The notes under the pieces: model-generated
Databases searched by the model: none
Told to the model about the DNA's origin: nothing
The model's input: only the letters and a program-made list of their open reading frames with translations
Translations under genes and position numbers: made by a program
Part shown: positions 51,422 through 59,390 of the stretch, piece after piece
How positions within the stretch are numbered: position 1 is the first letter of the stretch
Layout: every line of letters starts with the position of its first letter
Source: a virus
Length of the DNA: 61,417 bases
IMG/VR virus record: IMGVR_UViG_3300045988_077264
Coordinates: 1-61,417 of that record
Strand: one strand, 5' to 3'

Positions 51422-52630
51422 TTATTCACTTGCCTTAAAATTGTATACCGGTTTGATAATTGCAAGCACATCAACTGTATCTTTGATATTCTCAAAAATT
51501 TCATCCAATGTCTTATATGCCATTGGAGATTCATCTATTGTAGATTGATTGACAGAAGTTGTATATATTCCGTCCATTGCCTTTTCAAACTCTTCCAACG
51601 ATACTAATTCCTTGGCTTTTGTCCGGCTCATTACTCTACCGGCTCCATGAGGTGCGGATTGGTTCCAATCCTCATTTCCTTTTCCGGTACCAATAATGCA
51701 ACCGTCTCGCATATTGATTGGAATAAGTACCTTTTCTCCTAGTTTGGCTGAAATAGCGCCCTTGCGGACAATATTTGAATCATGGTCGATATAATTGTGA
51801 ATACACTCGAAGTAATCTGGCATATCGGCATCGACGTCCCATCCCATGTGGTTGCATATAATTTGAGCAATCATAACGCGGTTCATGTAGGCGAACTTCT
51901 GGCAAATTCTCATATCATGCAGATAATCTTCCCTGTATTTACCCTCTAAATAGCACAAATCCTTTGGAATATTCGGATTAACCGCCTTGAAATTTCTGTG
52001 CAATTCTGCTATGGCATTTTGAATTTCAGATTTTCTTCCAGTAGCTTTGTATTCTTCAATAATCCTGTCCTGTTCTTCATACAGTTTATCTTTGCCGCTC
52101 ATAAGTTCAAATGCAAGGTTCTGATAATAGTCAGCAACCTGTTTTCCGAGATTACGGCTACCGGTATGAATAACAAGATACTTATAACCATCCTCTGCAA
52201 CATCAACCTCAATGAAGTGATTTCCACCTCCGAGAGTGCCGATAGACCGCTCAAGCCGTTTTGTATCTCGCAATTCTCGGTAGCACTTCAAATCCTGTAA
52301 TTCATCGAATCTGATAATTCTTCCATCATGCACATCTCTTCCGCTTGGAACATAGGAACGAATCACGTTATCCAGCTTTTCAAAATCAATATCTGTCTGG
52401 CCAAGGCTTACGCAAAGCATACCGCAACCAATATCAACCCCAACAATGTTCGGTATAACTTTTTCCCCAAGGTCTGCTGTAAATCCAATAACACATCCCT
52501 TTCCGGCATGAATATCCGGCATGATACGAACTTTACAATCTTTGAATGCATCCTGTGCAAGCAATAATTCAATTTGATCTACCGCTTCCTGTTCAACGTT
52601 CTTGGTAAATATTTTTAAATCACTCATCAT
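51422..52630 (-). CDS. rtcB: RtcB-family RNA 3'-phosphate/5'-OH ligase
   Basis: VGVDIGCGM, HTGSRNLG and APHGAGR motifs. 402 aa. Confidence 0.9.
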   Translation of the reverse strand: MMSDLKIFTKNVEQEAVDQIELLLAQDAFKDCKVRIMPDIHAGKGCVIGFTADLGEKVIPNIVGVDIGCGMLCVSLGQTDIDFEKLDNVIRSYVPSGRDVHDGRIIRFDELQDLKCYRELRDTKRLERSIGTLGGGNHFIEVDVAEDGYKYLVIHTGSRNLGKQVADYYQNLAFELMSGKDKLYEEQDRIIEEYKATGRKSEIQNAIAELHRNFKAVNPNIPKDLCYLEGKYREDYLHDMRICQKFAYMNRVMIAQIICNHMGWDVDADMPDYFECIHNYIDHDSNIVRKGAISAKLGEKVLIPINMRDGCIIGTGKGNEDWNQSAPHGAGRVMSRTKAKELVSLEEFEKAMDGIYTTSVNQSTIDESPMAYKTLDEIFENIKDTVDVLAIIKPVYNFKASE

Positions 52631-53526: not shown

Positions 53527-54252
53527 TTACATTTCGTCTTTTCCTAAATTATTTCTTCGCATATTACGTTCTAAATAATATTTCTTTAGTGCTTCATCCA
53601 CTTTATCTGCATTTACCATAAAGCTATAAGTAAAACCTTCTTCATCTTTCTTGTCTTTATAAATACTTTGTTTTCCTGTGTTTTCATTTTTATTCTTCTT
53701 AAGCTCATCATAAATTAAATCTAATTTTGCGCTTAATTTATCCTCTGGAGATATATCTATACCTGAAAGGTCAGGAGCACTTGCTTTTACAATTCTTACC
53801 AACGTATTAATCCTTCCTTCTTTTGTTGATATAATTGCATCTTTAATTTTTTCCCTTGCCTCTAATACATTTTCATATAATCTATCGCTTTGATAATAAA
53901 TCGTACTAATTCCGCTCACGTCAAAAATGTTCTCGGTTATATTATCTTGTATTAAAACAACAGGCTTATCATAAGCCTGCCTTAGTCCTAATTCATATAA
54001 TACATTTGGATTCCTATTACTCAAATCACATATTGCCATTGGACACTCTTGAATTGCATCAAAAATTTTATTAATGATTGTATCACTAATTTTATTTTCA
54101 TCAACACGATATGGTATATATCCAGCATTTTCAACAGCAGGCTTAATAATTTGTTCATACACTTTGGTAAAATGACCTTTAGGATAATCTCCCTGGTCAC
54201 TAATTGGCATAATTACAAAGCACTTTTCTTTATCTTTTGTATTATTTTCCAC
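53527..54252 (-). CDS. Nucleoside 2-deoxyribosyltransferase-like / TIR-like fold protein (unknown function)
   Basis: The N-terminal pattern CFVIMPISD...ICDLSNRNPNVLYELGLRQAYDKPVVLIQD is typical of that Rossmann-like superfamily. It lies directly downstream of the tRNA-like array and upstream of the terminator. Confidence 0.4.
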   Translation of the reverse strand: MENNTKDKEKCFVIMPISDQGDYPKGHFTKVYEQIIKPAVENAGYIPYRVDENKISDTIINKIFDAIQECPMAICDLSNRNPNVLYELGLRQAYDKPVVLIQDNITENIFDVSGISTIYYQSDRLYENVLEAREKIKDAIISTKEGRINTLVRIVKASAPDLSGIDISPEDKLSAKLDLIYDELKKNKNENTGKQSIYKDKKDEEGFTYSFMVNADKVDEALKKYYLERNMRRNNLGKDEM

Positions 54253-54327: not shown

Positions 54328-54431
54328 TAGCGACACAGGGAATCGAACCCTGTCAGATCAAACCATGCCAACCGCTTTCAAATCTGCAATTTCTAGTCAC
54401 GGAAGAGTTTTCTGTTTCCAATAATGCCGCT
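54328..54431 (-). ncRNA. tRNA-like RNA T1 (acceptor + T-arm closed, non-canonical 72-nt body)
   Basis: On the minus strand, the 5' AGCGGCA pairs 7/7 with the 3' TGTCGCT. T-arm: CAGGG-TTCGATT-CCCTG. No D or anticodon cloverleaf could be drawn. Confidence 0.4.
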
Positions 54432-54500
54432 ACCATCAATAAGTCTCCCATCGACCAGAACTATTGCAGTAGCACCTGACTAAGTGGAGATAAGGATAAG

Positions 54501-54586
54501 CGCAGTGCGTAGGACTCGAACCTACAAGGCGAATAAACGCCCGACCGGATAGCAACCGGCTCCAATTCCAATTATGGGAACACTTC
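54501..54586 (-). tRNA. tRNA-Ser (anticodon GCU), class II, no encoded CCA
   Basis: Hand fold: acceptor GAAGTGT/GCACTGC (6/7), D-stem CCA/TGG with GG in the loop, anticodon arm GCCGG-TTGCTAT-CCGGT, 18-nt variable arm GGCG/CGCC, and T-arm GTAGG-TTCGAGT-CCTAC. Confidence 0.7.
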
Positions 54587-54651: not shown

Positions 54652-54790
54652 TGCCCGCAGGTGGATTTGAACCACCATTCTGCAACCTTGCTTACTCCGA
54701 TTATTTCAAGCGGAAAGTGCCGGAATCGAACCGACCTCACGGATTATTGGTGTACCTCACCGTAATTGCTGCCTTGCGATATACCTTTCC
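54652..54790 (-). ncRNA. Composite tRNA-like unit (T4 80-nt element plus 5'-truncated tRNA-Ser(UGA)-like T3)
   Basis: T4 (54711-54790): acceptor GGAAAGG/ACTTTCC (6/7) and T-arm GTCGG-TTCGATT-CCGGC. T3 (54652-54717): TTCCG-CTTGAAA(TAAT)-CGGAG, variable arm GCAA-GG-TTGC and T-arm GGTGG-TTCAAAT-CCACC, but no 5' acceptor or D arm. Confidence 0.35.
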
Positions 54791-54922
54791 ATACTCGTCA
54801 ACGAACTTTCATCGTCCTGTTTCCACACTTTTTAAGTCGACAATGCTTCCATCACAAGAAAAACATCATTTATTACACTAAAACTCGTCAGTCTTATCAC
54901 ATAAACAATATTTTACAACGCA

Positions 54923-55012
54923 TGGGGAAGAGAGGAATTGAACCTCCAATGTTTACCACTTGGGAACTGATTTACAGTCAGCTGCAACACCGCCAATCGT
55001 TGCCGCTTCCCC
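54923..55012 (-). tRNA. tRNA-Tyr (anticodon GUA), class II, no encoded CCA
   Basis: Acceptor GGGGAAG/CTTCCCC (7/7), D-arm GCAAC-GATTGGCGGT-GTTGC, anticodon arm GCTGA-CTGTAAA-TCAGT, 18-nt variable region, and T-arm GGAGG-TTCAATT-CCTCT. Confidence 0.8.
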
Positions 55013-55089
55013 AAAATGCGCGGACACCTCACTCCGTATCTCTGTATGCGACCGCGCTACGCATACAGTATCAAATCAGCTCGGCACCA

Positions 55090-55182
55090 TCGGAACGGAA
55101 GGATTCGAACCCCCGACTTTCCATCTTTCGATGTCGTGAATTAACACACGCTTGAACGCTCTTGCCAACGAGCTACGTTCCG
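55090..55182 (-). ncRNA. tRNA-like RNA T6 (canonical acceptor, D and T arms with about 20 extra nt in the anticodon region)
   Basis: Acceptor CGGAACG/CGTTCCG (7/7), TA, D-arm GCTC-GTTGGCAA-GAGC and T-arm GGGGG-TTCGAAT-CCTTC. There are 42 nt where about 22 are expected, forming the hairpins CGTG-TGTTAATT-CACG and CATC-GAAA-GATG. Confidence 0.45.
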
Positions 55183-55528
55183 AAACCGCCATCAGACGGT
55201 TAGCAATAATGTTTTTCGTGCCATGCATCGCACTATCCGGTTTGAAGCCTTTCACCGGCAACTCTTTTCATAGCTCAGGCACCGTGGGATAGGCACCCGA
55301 ACAATCAAGTTTGACTGCTATATGGATTGCTCGTCAGCAAATTATGGAGTGACCATCACTCATCACCATATAGGCTTACGTCTAATGCCGCGCTCCGCGG
55401 CAATAACCACCGGACGGTCTCGCACCGTCCTTAACAGAATCGTCCTAGTGGCTGAAAGGTATCTCTATGCCAAACAATGGTATATAACCACGCCGCCAGA
55501 TAGAAAACAATCAAAAACTATCCGGCAA
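55183..55528 (-). ncRNA. 346-nt GC-richer, hairpin-dense non-coding RNA candidate flanked by tRNA-like elements
   Basis: Many perfect stems on the minus strand: GCCGGATAG/CTATCTGGC, GGACGGT/ACCGTCC, GCCGCG/CGCGGC, GAGTGA/TCACTC, TTGCT/AGCAA, GTGC/GCAC and ACCG/CGGT. No credible ORF. Confidence 0.45.
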
Positions 55529-55607
55529 TCAAAGTAAAAGGATTCGAACCTTTGAGTTTCTTTCTCCAGTTCCATTTTCTGTATGCTTGAAAATTAACTG
55601 TACTTCG
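55529..55607 (-). ncRNA. tRNA-like RNA T7 (acceptor + T-arm closed, aberrant body)
   Basis: Acceptor CGAAGTA/TACTTTG (7/7 including one G-U) and T-arm AAAGG-TTCGAAT-CCTTT. The body folds as CAGTT..TTTTC-AAGCATACA-GAAAA..AACTG plus GAG-AAAGAAA-CTC. Confidence 0.35.
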
Positions 55608-55611
55608 CTTT

Positions 55612-55764
55612 TTATTTCCAAATTAGCAACAAGTTTAATACCAATAGCACAATTATTAAACTAACTCCATGTTTTGCTTCTGTACCTTCTACCTTAGATG
55701 AAGCCAACAACGAAATCAGGAACAAATCTAAGAGACTTACTATATCTTTTAAAATTATTCTCAC
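55612..55764 (-). CDS. Possible 50-aa hydrophobic peptide
   Basis: GTG start 10 nt after GGAGAG, with two hydrophobic stretches. Ends 5 nt before T7. Weak call. Confidence 0.25.
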   Translation of the reverse strand: MRIILKDIVSLLDLFLISLLASSKVEGTEAKHGVSLIIVLLVLNLLLIWK

Positions 55765-58252: not shown

Positions 58253-58492
58253 TTATATTCTCTTATATGCCTGTCCTCTTGGTAATATGTCATTTATAAT
58301 TATTATATCTTCCTTGATTGAAAATAATATTCTAAGATCTCCAACCCTTAAGCGAAAATCATTTTCTAACCCTGCTAACTTTTTCACATCTCCAAGCGGC
58401 AATTTTTCTATCGCAATTTTCAGCCTTTGCTTGGTAGCTCTGTCGCAAGAGTTAATATATTTTACTGCTTTCTTTTTGTACTCTATTTGCAT
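58253..58492 (-). CDS. RelE/ParE-family toxin
   Basis: MQIEYKKKAVKYINS...LENDFRLRVGDLRILFSIKEDIIIINDILPRGQAYK. ATG at 58492 follows AAAGGAGA. Confidence 0.7.
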   Translation of the reverse strand: MQIEYKKKAVKYINSCDRATKQRLKIAIEKLPLGDVKKLAGLENDFRLRVGDLRILFSIKEDIIIINDILPRGQAYKRI

Positions 58493-58531
58493 CTTTGGTA
58501 TCTCCTTTCTTTTGATACCTACATTATATGT

Positions 58532-58920
58532 TAAGTGCATTATATAGTCAATATTATAAGTGCATTATTTTCTATATTTTTCCATTCTTTCCAATTCTGC
58601 TGCAACAACTTCTTTTATAAATGTACTAGGGTTTTTAACTCCAACCGCTTGCATTCTGTCCCTTGTTCCGGCTGGAAAAATTACATTTATTCTATCATTC
58701 TTCTTTTCATACTCTCGAACCGCTTTTCTCTGTGCAGCCGAAGTTTTCAATTCTATTTCGCTCATGCGTTATACCTCGCTTATATTCATAATTCTTTAGA
58801 TAAGTATATAATAAGTGCATTATTTTGTCAATTTATAAGTGCATTATACATTATGCACAATTTGATATTATGTATAAGTGCATTATTTTGTTTATTTAAT
58901 CAATTGTATAAGTGCATTAT
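58532..58920 (+). repeat. Six direct copies of TAAGTGCATTAT (operator/iteron-like)
   Basis: Copies at 58532, 58557, 58812, 58836, 58875 and 58909, all in the same orientation. Five of them share the extended form TATAAGTGCATTAT. Confidence 0.7.
58565..58765 (-). CDS. Ribbon-helix-helix-like small DNA-binding protein
   Basis: RINVIFPAGTRDRMQAVGVKNPSTFIKEVVAAEL fits a beta-alpha-alpha (RHH) pattern. The gene is flanked on both sides by the TAAGTGCATTAT repeats. Confidence 0.5.
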   Translation of the reverse strand: MSEIELKTSAAQRKAVREYEKKNDRINVIFPAGTRDRMQAVGVKNPSTFIKEVVAAELERMEKYRK

Positions 58921-58956: not shown

Positions 58957-59313
58957 ATGAAAGCGAGGTTTTCCAATATGAAAGATTATACAAAATTTAT
59001 GAAATGGGCCGTTGTTTACATGATTGATAGAAAGACTCAAGACAACCGGAAAAGCAAGGTACAGGTTGAAGCGCTGTTCTCAAGTGCAACACAGGCGAAC
59101 GACAATTATATAATTCACAATCCGGAGCATAAGCGCTATATCATCCACATTGACGATTTAGAAGAGTTTGAAACCATTTATAACCAGTTTCAGGACTTAC
59201 GCGAGAAATACGGAGAATATGCAATTTTTCACATCGAAGATTTAAAACTCGGATGCGATAAAGAAAATAAATACAGATATATTTTAAATGTTTATACAAG
59301 TATTGATTTTTAG
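58957..59313 (+). CDS. Small hypothetical protein (ORF1 of the right-arm operon)
   Basis: The ORF ends at TAG 59311-59313. The likely start is 58978 (GAGG 9 nt upstream) or 58957. Confidence 0.45.
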   Translation: MKARFSNMKDYTKFMKWAVVYMIDRKTQDNRKSKVQVEALFSSATQANDNYIIHNPEHKRYIIHIDDLEEFETIYNQFQDLREKYGEYAIFHIEDLKLGCDKENKYRYILNVYTSIDF

Positions 59314-59378
59314 CCGAAACGCTCCGCCCTGGAGCGTCAGCCGCGGGATGGTCGCCCGGCTCTGATGATGGCAGACCA
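59313..59378 (+). ncRNA. Type II hammerhead ribozyme candidate HH1
   Basis: GCC-GAAAC, stem III GCUCC/GGAGC, GUC (C17 = 59338), stem I AGCCG/CGGCU, CUGAUGA (59362-59368), then GGC. Loop I UGGUC pairs with GACCA (59374-59378). Confidence 0.65.
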
Positions 59379-59390
59379 GAAAGGAAAAAT

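What the first reader, a model, noticed from the sequence alone, without database searches (positions are those of the whole stretch)
55183..55528. 346-nt hairpin-dense, GC-richer non-coding RNA candidate of unknown class
There is no credible ORF on either strand. The composition is visibly GC-richer than the AT-rich flanks. Many perfect local stems form on the minus strand. They include GCCGGATAG/CTATCTGGC (9 bp with one G-U) and GGACGGT/ACCGTCC (plus-strand coordinates 55412-55430). Others are GCCGCG/CGCGGC, ATGG..GAGTGA/TCACTC..CAT, TTGCT-GACG-AGCAA, CCGG-TGAA-AGGC-TTCA-AA-CCGG, GTGC/GCAC and ACCG/CGGT. Together with the flanking tRNA-like elements and the downstream hairpin spacer (55013-55089, stem CTGTATGCG/CGCATACAG), the non-coding unit spans about 600 nt. 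Large ornate RNAs of prophages in Firmicutes (the ROOL and GOLLD classes) are reported to sit next to tRNA genes, so this could be a member, a relative or a new class. I cannot recall their consensus well enough to assign it.
Basis: partly seen in the sequence, partly recalled or inferred. Interest (0 to 1): 0.65.

Follow-up and report, generated by a model that had tools for sequence, protein, structure and literature searches.

The report
Structured RNA inside phage tRNA array
A 346-base stretch between two tRNA-like genes of a gut phage encodes a conserved, intricately folded RNA that matches no catalogued RNA family; its core looks like a tRNA without an anticodon arm, and its function is unknown.

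Summary
Window 55183-55528 (RNA on the minus strand) is GC-richer than its flanks, has no conserved reading frame, and folds better than shuffled sequence. It abuts a tRNA-like element at each end.

Homologues occur in more than 200 uncultivated phage contigs. They also occur in Roseburia and Lachnospiraceae MAGs and in one GenBank phage, Dulem virus 39.

The RNA is modular: capping hairpins, a CCUUUC flank, a roughly 55-nt three-way junction ("M1", 55405-55459), a second junction domain, a long hairpin with a UAUCCCAC loop, and a conserved 3' block.

Covariation is strong. 98% of cells are paired, against 32-49% when partners are slid, and 16 of 53 pairs show compensatory changes.

M1 is the universal core. 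It keeps its fold through complete sequence turnover in phages whose terminases are only 27-30% identical.

It is not ROOL or GOLLD. No Rfam 15 family reaches threshold, while the same searches find true ROOL one tRNA downstream in some relatives.

Best reading: a processed spacer RNA released by RNase Z and RNase P. M1 has the topology of a tRNA lacking its anticodon arm, so it probably engages tRNA-recognising machinery. This mechanism is inferred, not shown.

The parts
55529..55607 (-). Upstream tRNA-like element. It has a 7-bp acceptor stem and a canonical GGUUCGAAUCC T-arm, but an aberrant D and anticodon region. It starts 4 nt after the stop codon of a 50-aa ORF (55612-55764).
   Evidence: Rfam tRNA model 21.6 bits, below the gathering score of 29. 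ARAGORN does not call it. It is conserved in close relatives, with a 15-nt insertion in some.
55477..55526 (-). 5' capping hairpins: GCCGGAUAG...CUAUCUGGC (55495-55526) and GUGGU...ACCAU (55477-55491). This is the variable 5' module.
   Evidence: Present in the MFE fold. nhmmer finds positions 1-70 only in near-identical relatives. Other lineages carry different hairpins at this position.
55454..55459 (-). Conserved single-stranded flank CCUUUC, immediately 5' of the M1 junction.
   Evidence: Present in every M1 copy, including loci fetched without requiring it: the RtcB-based loci, the P4-pattern loci and the BLAST hit.
55405..55453 (-). M1 three-way junction, the universal core. P2 is AGCCACU (55447-55453) paired with GGUGGUU (55405-55411), with an invariant inner U.G pair. 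P3 is AGG-ACGAU-UCU (55436-55446). The linker is GUUAA (55431-55435). P4 is GGACGGU-GCGAG-ACCGUCC (55412-55430).
   Evidence: Covariance model R1 scores 78.7 bits, E=1.7e-19, and finds a single copy in the window. In the model-fitted alignment A4, 98.7% of cells are paired and 8 of 16 pairs are compensatory. In the MAFFT alignment A3, 98.3% are paired; this count includes two loop-loop pairs that also covary. 51 distinct variants were parsed.
55387..55401 (-). Hairpin GCCGCG-GAG-CGCGGC.
   Evidence: Pairs at alignment columns 80-83/91-94. The outermost pair occurs as G-C, G-U or A-U.
55318..55373 (-). M2 three-way junction. The closing stem is CUAUAUGG/CCAUAUAG. It carries hairpins GAGUGA-UGG-UCACUC and UUGCU-GACG-AGCAA, with a conserved linker RUAAUUU.
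   Evidence: Helices 5-7 have 9 pairs with compensatory changes. Also present after M1 in Dulem virus 39.
55269..55306 (-). M3, a long hairpin of about 15 bp with many G.U pairs. It presents the conserved loop UAUCCCAC (55284-55291).
   Evidence: Helix 8: 16 pairs, 5 compensatory, 97.5% paired. The same loop recurs on unrelated stems in other M1 lineages, for example L205, L209 and L226.
55237..55259 (-). M6 hairpin GCCGG-UGAAAGGCUUCAAA-CCGG, followed by GGAUAG (55233-55238). GGAUAG is complementary to the CUAUCC of the M3 loop.
   Evidence: Read from the sequence. This module is present or absent among relatives. The M3-loop pairing is unproven because neither side varies.
55184..55235 (-). 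3' block. It comprises hairpin GUGC-GAUGCAUG-GCAC, a single-stranded stretch GAAAAACAUUAUUGCUA, and the terminal hairpin AACCGUC-UGAU-GGCGGUU. The block ends 1 nt before the next tRNA-like gene.
   Evidence: Nearly invariant in 42 distinct relatives, where it ends 1-3 nt from a tRNA of varying identity.
55090..55182 (-). Downstream tRNA-like gene. Its acceptor stem and D-arm match those of tRNA-Ile(UAU) genes in related arrays, but the anticodon region is replaced by two hairpins.
   Evidence: Rfam tRNA 40.2 bits, with 32 nt in place of 11 in the anticodon region. Not called by ARAGORN. Compared with the L216 tRNA-Ile.
55014..55089 (-). Hairpin spacer (CUGUAUGCG/CGCAUACAG) that leads into tRNA-Tyr at 54922-55013.
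   Evidence: Sequence. The same spacer precedes tRNA-Tyr in L216 and L193. tRNA-Tyr is called by ARAGORN.

Best explanation
The 346 nt encode a modular structured RNA that is co-transcribed with the phage's tRNA array on the minus strand.

Release (inferred): the RNA starts right after one tRNA-like element and ends 1 nt before the next. Host RNase Z (5' side) and RNase P (3' side) should therefore release it as a discrete RNA, with a hairpin capping each end.

Core (shown): the conserved heart is M1, a roughly 55-nt three-way junction preceded by CCUUUC. M1 is conserved, with full sequence turnover of its helices, at the same genome position (upstream of the terminase) in a broad group of Lachnospiraceae-type phages.

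Mechanism (inferred): M1 has the topology of a tRNA lacking its anticodon arm. An acceptor-like P2 abuts a T-arm-like P4 with no intervening base. A UAG follows the stem, as U8-A9-G10 does in tRNA. A short D-arm-like P3 has a loop that can pair with the P4 loop. The most likely mode of action is that M1 is read by tRNA-recognising machinery: RNase P, RNase Z, the CCA-adding enzyme or another factor that binds the tRNA elbow. It would serve either as a processing or punctuation site, or as a handle or decoy. M2, M3 and the 3' block are lineage-specific accessory domains.

Shown: the family, the fold, the strand and the context. Inferred: excision, the tRNA mimicry and the partner.
For: Family and fold:
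- nhmmer finds the core in more than 130 fetched loci.
- Model R1 separates structure-bearing copies from chance pattern matches.
- Covariation: A1 has 98.2% of cells paired against 32-48% when slid, with 16 compensatory pairs. A4 has 98.7% against 33-49%.

Strand: the P2 inner U.G pair is invariant, and M3 and P3 hold many G.U pairs that would be C.A on the other strand. The RNA is co-oriented with the tRNAs and with nearly all genes.

Excision:
- The 3' hairpin ends 1-3 nt before tRNAs of many identities.
- The spacer starts directly after a tRNA.
- Array tRNAs lack an encoded CCA, and 86% have U as the first trailer base.
- Where M1 is not in an array (L207, L294), a minimal acceptor plus T-arm element still follows it.

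tRNA-like topology:
- The junctions P2/P3 and P4/P2' have 0 nt.
- Class B has a 5-bp P4 with a 7-nt loop NUCRCAA and an L3 of GGAAU, resembling the D-loop GG pairing with T-loop psi-C.
- Class A L3 and L4 covary: CG:CG, CU:AG and UU:AA.
- P2+P4 is mostly 12-14 bp.
- Neighbouring modules in relatives are themselves tRNA-like shells with the anticodon arm replaced.

Synteny holds with terminase identity down to 27%.
Against:
- Rfam's tRNA model does not score M1.
- Class A has a 7-bp stem with a pentaloop rather than a T-arm.
- The T-loop signature (U54-A58, G53-C61) is absent.
- P2+P4 ranges from 11 to 15 bp, not a fixed 12.
- The conserved CCUUUC flank is unexplained by a tRNA-mimic model.
- The L3-L4 contact rests on two independent compensatory lineages plus several mismatched variants.
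- The accessory domains M2 and M3 have conserved single-stranded bases that hint at a function beyond punctuation.
Confidence: 0.5

Rival explanations
1. A trans-acting 'ornate' phage RNA that works like ROOL or GOLLD. After release from the tRNA array it would form a higher-order, RNA-only or RNA-protein assembly during lytic growth. The tRNA-like features would then be incidental.
For: It shares the genomic niche of ROOL and GOLLD, namely phage tRNA islands (PMC12286853, PMC5737381). True ROOL lies one tRNA downstream of homologous spacers in L101, L111, L209 and L275. Larger relatives embed tRNA-like modules in a variable middle, as GOLLD does in its linker (PMC12286853). Several conserved single-stranded segments and a conserved hairpin loop (UAUCCCAC) look like tertiary or intermolecular contacts.
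Against: There is no sequence or model similarity to ROOL or GOLLD. Family members range from 147 to about 670 nt and gain or lose whole modules, which fits poorly with a fixed quaternary architecture. No conserved self-complementary loop was found.
Confidence: 0.2
2. M1 is a new small self-cleaving ribozyme, or another catalytic or ligand-binding RNA, that processes the array transcript. The phage RtcB ligase would handle the resulting 2',3'-cyclic phosphate and 5'-OH ends.
For: M1 is a compact junction with invariant junction bases (the U.G pair, UAG, GUUAA), a conserved adjacent strand (CCUUUC) and a loop-loop contact, all features typical of small ribozymes and aptamers. A type II hammerhead lies 4 kb away at 59312-59380, and another in relative L209. 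RtcB lies 2.6 kb downstream. HDV-like theta ribozymes are a precedent for ribozymes next to phage tRNAs (PMC10879173).
Against: No ribozyme family scores, even at E<=10. The HDV-like P1 pairing is not supported, because the G-to-U change in Dulem virus 39 is compensated inside P4, not by the flank. RtcB is absent from most M1-bearing loci. There is no experimental evidence.
Confidence: 0.08
3. Non-functional spacer made of decayed tRNA genes and hairpins. Its conservation would reflect only recent common ancestry and recombination among closely related phages.
For: The array is a mosaic. Modules come and go, one relative (L148) deletes everything between two ACCGUC repeats, and several neighbours are degenerate tRNAs. 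The 5' 70 nt and the 3' block are restricted to one lineage.
Against: M1 keeps its fold while P2, P4 and the third pair of P3 are completely replaced, in phages whose terminases share only 27-30% identity. Invariant unpaired bases persist across these lineages. M2 and M3 show 14 compensatory pairs.
Confidence: 0.07
4. A divergent member of an existing Rfam motif of unknown function: RAGATH-10 read on the opposite strand, or RAGATH-36 or drum.
For: RAGATH-10 hits the reverse strand of a class-B M1 at 13.9 bits, E=1.4. The reverse complement of its consensus has the same order of elements: a CUUUC flank, a closing stem, a hairpin with a GGAAU loop, a further hairpin and a U-rich tail. RAGATH-36 scores 14.9 bits and drum 13.5 bits on the window. 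RAGATH motifs were defined by proximity to hammerhead or twister contexts (from my own knowledge of how the RAGATH motifs were defined), and the window has a hammerhead.
Against: All scores are far below the gathering thresholds (41, 70 and 43 bits) and are not significant. None is reproduced in other variants: type 6 M1 gives no hit at all, class A gives no RAGATH-10 hit, and relatives give no drum or RAGATH-36 hit. G.U statistics place M1 on the strand opposite to the RAGATH-10 match.
Confidence: 0.08

Closest known systems
ROOL RNA (Rfam RF03087)
   Same: A phage or prophage RNA of Firmicutes sitting in tRNA islands, highly structured, of unknown function. In relatives it lies in the very same array, one tRNA downstream (PMC5737381, PMC12286853).
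   Different: No model or sequence similarity. ROOL is about 580 nt with a fixed architecture. This family is 147-670 nt and modular, with a 55-nt universal core.
GOLLD RNA (Rfam RF01998)
   Same: tRNA-island context. A variable region that can hold tRNAs, next to conserved parts (PMC12286853). Larger relatives of this element embed tRNA-like modules.
   Different: No Rfam match. Much smaller. Here the conserved core is at the 5' side rather than in a large 3' domain.
mascRNA/MALAT1-type 3'-end formation and the tRNA punctuation model (established knowledge)
   Same: A non-tRNA transcript whose end is defined by RNase P cleavage at an adjoining tRNA-like structure. Here every family member ends 1-3 nt before a tRNA or a minimal acceptor plus T-arm element.
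   Different: Those systems are eukaryotic or mitochondrial. Processing here is inferred from sequence only.
Stable small RNAs of the phage T4 tRNA cluster (species 1 and 2, rnaC/rnaD; recalled from memory, not checked)
   Same: Non-tRNA stable RNAs of unknown function, encoded within and processed from a phage tRNA gene cluster.
   Different: No sequence relation was tested. Different phage group and host.
RAGATH-10 (RF03147) and other RAGATH motifs
   Same: Small multi-stem junction motifs of unknown function from hammerhead or twister neighbourhoods. There is a weak reverse-strand resemblance in element order.
   Different: 13.9 bits against a gathering score of 41.2. The match is on the opposite strand and is not reproduced in other M1 types.
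Theta (minimal HDV-like) ribozymes next to phage tRNAs (PMC10879173)
   Same: A structured RNA element associated with tRNA genes of gut Caudoviricetes.
   Different: Theta ribozymes lie within 5 nt of the tRNA and have the nested double pseudoknot with a catalytic C. M1 lies 40-95 nt from the tRNA and fails the P1 and J4/2 requirements.

Membership tests
ROOL (RF03087) | Match to the curated covariance model at or above 99.1 bits (about 580 nt, six multistem junctions, three pseudoknots) | tested here: not met
   No hit in the window at the gathering score or at E<=10. Positive controls: 366-391 bits in L101, L209 and L275. nhmmer with the L101 ROOL sequence finds nothing in the window.
ROOL / GOLLD | Location in phage or prophage tRNA islands | tested here: met
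   The element lies between tRNA-like genes in an array upstream of the terminase.
GOLLD (RF01998) | Match to the curated covariance model, with its conserved large 3' domain | tested here: not met
   No hit in the window or in the larger relatives at E<=1-10.
tRNA (RF00005) | Cloverleaf scored by the Rfam tRNA model or ARAGORN; canonical T-loop (G53-C61, U54-A58) | tested here: not met
   M1 is not hit by the tRNA model, even in 79-371-nt searches at E<=10, nor by ARAGORN. The P4 closing pair and loop do not fit the T-loop signature.
tRNA-like top half (works-like claim, not membership) | Acceptor-like stem continuous with a second stem (0-nt junction), a short D-like hairpin, and a loop-loop contact | tested here: inconclusive
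   The 0-nt junctions and the invariant UAG are seen in all variants. L3-L4 pairs covary in two lineages but are mismatched in a few variants. P2+P4 is 11-15 bp.
HDV-like / theta ribozyme | Nested double pseudoknot with a 6-7-bp P1 formed by the 5' strand; catalytic C in J4/2; cleavage site within 5 nt of the tRNA | tested here: not met
   Only CUU/AAG (3-4 bp) could pair. The AAG-to-AAU change in Dulem virus 39 is compensated within P4, not by the flank. J4/2 is 0 nt. The distance to the tRNA is 40-95 nt. No Rfam HDV-family hit.
Hammerhead ribozyme | CUGANGA and GAAA core around a three-way junction | tested here: not met
   The CUGACGAG in M2 is the hairpin UUGCU-GACG-AGCAA. Its U-A pair flips to A-U in six of the aligned sequences, which destroys CUGA. 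No Rfam hit at this site, while the true hammerhead at 59312-59380 scores 69.9 bits.
RAGATH-10 (RF03147) | Score at or above 41.2 bits on the modelled strand | tested here: not met
   13.9 bits on the opposite strand of one class-B copy. No hit for type 6 or for the window.
drum (RF02958) / RAGATH-36 (RF03104) | Score at or above 43 and 70 bits respectively | tested here: not met
   13.5 and 14.9 bits in the window. Absent from relatives at E<=10.
RNase P RNA, tmRNA, group I intron, raiA, 6S | Match to the respective Rfam model, or an ARAGORN tmRNA call | tested here: not met
   No hits.

The most novel reading that the evidence does not exclude
M1 (CCUUUC plus the three-way junction) is a new functional RNA class with an activity of its own. 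It could be a self-cleaving or processing ribozyme, or a module that binds or mimics the tRNA elbow and lets gut phages capture or divert host tRNA-handling or tRNA-targeting defence enzymes. The full 346-nt RNA would then be a new class of tRNA-island phage RNA alongside ROOL and GOLLD.
Probability: 0.12. Interest if true: 0.85.

Novelty: new variant of a known kind. Interest (0 to 1): 0.6.

Why it matters
Phage tRNA islands are already known to hide two of the largest enigmatic bacterial RNAs, ROOL and GOLLD. This finding adds a third, unrelated family to the same niche. It is abundant in human and animal gut Lachnospiraceae phages.

The family has a small universal core that is easy to synthesise and test. 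The core's tRNA-like topology gives concrete hypotheses: RNase P or RNase Z processing, CCA addition, elbow recognition, or a decoy for tRNA-directed defence.

The finding also shows that these arrays are built largely from tRNA-shaped shells with replaced anticodon arms. It further shows that gene callers annotate such RNA as small hypothetical proteins, as in Dulem virus 39.

Tried and rejected
- ROOL, GOLLD, RNase P RNA, tmRNA, group I and raiA: no Rfam or ARAGORN hits.
- HDV-like fold for M1, with the CCUUUC flank as P1: rejected. Only 3-4 bp are possible, there is no J4/2, and the Dulem variant compensates inside P4.
- Hammerhead core in M2 (CUGACGAG): rejected, because it is a covarying hairpin.
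- RNase P CR-V-like string in the 3' block (ACG.AAAACAU..UGCUAA): considered by eye. No P4 partner and no Rfam hit.
- tmRNA-like GAUUCUG string: coincidence. ARAGORN is negative.
- Anti-Shine-Dalgarno mimic (CCUCCUUUC): only CCUUUC is conserved. The window itself has AUACCUUUC.
- Alternative long-range pairing of GCCAC with the 3' UGGCG: rejected. L132 and L201 compensate locally, and the GACGGUU variants support the local 3' hairpin.
- RNAalifold's P3 (GACG/UGUU): replaced by AGN/N'CU, which class B supports.
- Protein coding on either strand: rejected.
- drum, RAGATH-36 and RAGATH-10 similarities: not reproducible. A pattern scan for RAGATH-10-like loci found nothing.
- RtcB as an obligate partner: rejected. 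Most M1 loci lack it, and RtcB-only loci (L017-L071) lack M1.
- Neighbouring proteins p133, p230 and p241: no informative Pfam or PHROG annotation.
- Cultured-phage search: only Dulem virus 39.
- Literature string search for the motif: nothing relevant.
- The 2023 catalogue of 10,006 viral candidate RNAs (PMC10690425) could not be checked for overlap, because its supplements are not held.
Full report
**What is there**

The window is a roughly 61-kb tailed-phage genome. It encodes an SPP1-type portal, an SU10-type capsid protein, a large terminase and RtcB, and almost all genes lie on the minus strand.

Between a small ORF (55612-55764) and a 241-aa ORF (53527-54252) lies about 1.3 kb without genes. 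This stretch holds a minus-strand tRNA array. ARAGORN calls tRNA-Ser (54500-54586) and tRNA-Tyr (54922-55013). Rfam's tRNA model adds 55090-55182 (40.2 bits) and, below threshold, 55529-55607 (21.6 bits).

The finding, 55183-55528, is exactly the gap between these last two elements. Its GC content is 0.48-0.54 against about 0.31 in the flanks. Its minus strand folds to -123.5 kcal/mol (z = -3.6).

**It is not protein-coding**

A 71-aa ORF exists on the plus strand. In relatives, the open antisense stretch crosses the most conserved block in three different frames, with 1-2-nt indels between lineages.

**Relatives**

Only positions of about 70-265 and about 290-345 are widely conserved. The 5' 70 nt occur only in near-identical phages, and the middle gains or loses whole blocks. 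Inter-tRNA spacers that contain the element range from 147 to about 670 nt.

The spacer always begins directly after a tRNA, mostly tRNA-Gln(UUG) or tRNA-Ile(UAU). It ends 1-3 nt before another tRNA of varying identity.

Three species-representative genomes carry the element: two Roseburia MAGs and one Lachnospiraceae MAG. One GenBank phage, Dulem virus 39 from lemur faeces, also carries it. There the region is annotated as small hypothetical proteins.

**Anatomy in the window (RNA sense, window coordinates)**

- Capping hairpins: 55477-55526.
- Single-stranded CCUUUC: 55454-55459.
- M1 three-way junction: 55405-55453. P2 is AGCCACU/GGUGGUU, P3 is AGG-ACGAU-UCU, the linker is GUUAA, and P4 is GGACGGU-GCGAG-ACCGUCC.
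- Hairpin: 55387-55401.
- M2 three-way junction: 55318-55373.
- M3 long hairpin: 55269-55306, with loop UAUCCCAC.
- M6 hairpin plus GGAUAG: 55233-55259.
- 3' block: 55184-55235, ending in the hairpin AACCGUC-UGAU-GGCGGUU.

**Structure is under selection**

- A MAFFT alignment of 28 distinct M1-M3 sequences (A1), not fitted to any structure, has 98.2% of 1469 cells paired. When the 3' partners are slid by 1-3 columns the figure drops to 32-48%. 16 of 53 pairs show changes on both sides, and 0 of 500 shuffles reach the observed covariation score.
- The shuffle control ignores relatedness, so the slid control and the number of independent lineages carry the weight.
- The many G.U pairs, especially in M3 and the invariant U.G at the inner end of P2, fix the strand as the tRNA strand.

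**M1 is the universal core**

In RtcB-linked relatives that lack nhmmer similarity (L010-L013, L064, L073), I found the same junction with every helix rewritten. An example is CCUUUC-CCCUCAU-AGC GGAAU GCU-GUUAA-GAGCC GUCGCAA GGCUC-GUGAGGG.

Most of these stretches (all but about ten of 81 distinct sequences) carry the full fold; the rest are chance matches.

A covariance model built from 20 class-A sequences (R1):
- finds exactly one copy in the window (78.7 bits);
- finds all structure-bearing copies in 86 loci;
- finds none of the chance pattern matches and nothing in RtcB-only loci.

On that model-fitted alignment, 98.7% of cells pair, against 33-49% when slid, and 8 of 16 pairs are compensatory. 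This alignment leans towards the structure by construction. The independent MAFFT alignment A3 gives 98.3%.

Parsing 51 distinct variants shows two classes:
- Class A has a 7-bp P4 with a GNRAG loop and an L3 of A[C/U][G/U]NU.
- Class B has a 5-bp P4 with a 7-nt loop NUCRCAA and an L3 of GGAAU.

Invariant features in both classes are the CCUUUC flank, the inner U.G of P2, UAG, and GUUAA. Dulem virus 39 even swaps the first P4 pair from G-C to U-A.

L3 and L4 can form two pairs, and these covary: CG:CG, CU:AG in L209/L275, and UU:AA in L294. A few single variants are mismatched.

**Context**

M1 sits at a fixed genome position, 2-5 kb upstream of and co-oriented with the large terminase. This holds in phages whose terminases are only 27-30% identical to the window's. 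RtcB is present in a minority.

In L207 and L294, M1 is not in a tRNA array. Even there it is followed within about 250 nt by a minimal acceptor plus T-arm element.

Genuine ROOL RNAs (366-391 bits) lie one tRNA downstream of the M1 spacer in L101, L209 and L275, and by nhmmer in L111. The window has none.

**Known families**

With all eight Rfam searches used, no family reaches threshold on the element. The only matches are weak:
- RAGATH-36, 14.9 bits, and drum, 13.5 bits, on the window. Neither recurs in relatives.
- RAGATH-10, 13.9 bits, on the reverse strand of one class-B M1.

The reverse complement of the RAGATH-10 consensus has a similar order of elements. However, type 6 M1 gives no hit and class A gives none. 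The G.U evidence also puts M1 on the other strand. I therefore treat RAGATH-10 as an unresolved lead, not a membership.

I tested HDV-like, hammerhead, RNase P-like and tmRNA-like readings that occurred to me while reading the sequence, and rejected each (see the tried-and-rejected field).

**How it most likely works**

Shown:
- It is a conserved, covarying, modular RNA on the tRNA strand.
- It is bounded by tRNA(-like) elements.
- It has a universal junction core.

Inferred from established tRNA processing:
- The array tRNAs lack an encoded CCA, and 86% have U as the first trailer base. This is the situation in which Firmicute RNase Z cuts after the discriminator.
- RNase P cuts at the 5' end of the next tRNA.
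- The spacer should therefore be released whole, with a hairpin at each end protecting it from exonucleases.

Inferred from anatomy:
- M1 has the connectivity of a tRNA without an anticodon arm. P2 continues into P4 with no intervening base, as the acceptor stem continues into the T stem.
- UAG follows the 5' strand, where U8-A9-G10 lie in tRNA.
- P3 is a stub of a D-arm whose loop can pair with the P4 loop. In class B this is literally GG against UC, as in the tRNA elbow.
- P2+P4 is mostly 12-14 bp.
- Neighbouring modules in relatives are also tRNA shells with a replaced anticodon arm. These include the AGGUGG...GGUGCAAAUCC...CCACCUA units and the window's own 55090-55182 element.

I therefore think M1 is read by tRNA-recognising machinery, either as an extra processing site or as a handle or decoy.

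My confidence estimates are:
- about 0.9 that this is a genuine functional structured RNA;
- about 0.6 that it is excised as described;
- about 0.35-0.4 that the tRNA-mimic reading is correct.

The conserved CCUUUC flank, the UAUCCCAC loop and the conserved unpaired bases of M2 remain unexplained.

**Novelty**

The kind of element is known: an enigmatic structured RNA in a phage tRNA island. This family is not in Rfam 15, and I found no paper describing it. A 2023 catalogue of 10,006 viral candidate RNAs may contain pieces of it, but I could not check.

I rate it a new variant of a known kind, of moderate to high interest.

Noticed in passing
window 59312-59380 (+): A full-length type II hammerhead ribozyme (69.9 bits, E=1.6e-12) on the strand opposite to nearly all genes, about 4 kb from the tRNA array. 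Relative L209 also has one (63.3 bits).
   Followed up: partly
window 51422-52630 (-): A phage-encoded RtcB RNA ligase (Pfam PF01139, E=1e-61) lies 2.6 kb downstream of the array and just upstream of the large terminase. It is optional among M1-bearing phages, and RtcB-only relatives lack the array within 10 kb.
   Followed up: partly
window 55090-55182 (-): An odd tRNA-like gene. Its acceptor stem and D-arm match tRNA-Ile(UAU) genes of related arrays. Its anticodon region is replaced by a hairpin with an 8-nt loop (UGUUAAUU) and a GAAA-capped hairpin. ARAGORN also reports tRNAs with 4-base or 2-base 'anticodons' in relatives (L107 ttca, L209 tttt, L127 ga).
   Followed up: partly
L138, L115, L089, L110, L012 (inside homologous spacers): Larger relatives carry embedded tRNA-Leu-like shells: AGGUGGUGGCGGAAUAGGUAGACGC ... 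GUGAGGUGCAAAUCCUCACCCACCUA. Their acceptor stems covary, and 100-300 nt of hypervariable sequence stands where the anticodon arm should be.
   Followed up: partly
L101 1462-2022; L209 6727-7300; L275 1827-2393; L111 4050-4596: Bona fide ROOL RNAs (366-391 bits) sit one tRNA downstream of the homologous M1 spacer in some related phages.
   Followed up: yes
window 58253-58540 (-): A 95-aa ORF matching a RelE-like toxin family (PHROG 1213, E=3e-14).
   Followed up: no
L317 = PP511791.1 (Dulem virus 39) 56.3-57.3 kb: The GenBank record annotates several 35-70-aa 'hypothetical proteins' across the tRNA-array RNA region that holds M1 and M2. These are probably gene-caller artefacts.
   Followed up: partly
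L205 3861-3927; L311 1395-1462: int-alpA RNA (RF02996) is found above the gathering score near class-B M1 arrays.
   Followed up: no
window 54711-54791 (-) and 54329-54376 (-): Two further weak tRNA-like or T-arm-containing elements (tRNA-Sec model 19.1 bits; mascRNA model 19.2 bits) in the same array. They may be more anticodon-less tRNA shells.
   Followed up: no
L148 (spacer of 147 nt): One relative has lost everything between P4 of M1 and the 3' terminal hairpin, apparently by recombination between the two ACCGUC repeats. This leaves M1's 5' part fused to GAUGGCGGUU.
   Followed up: no
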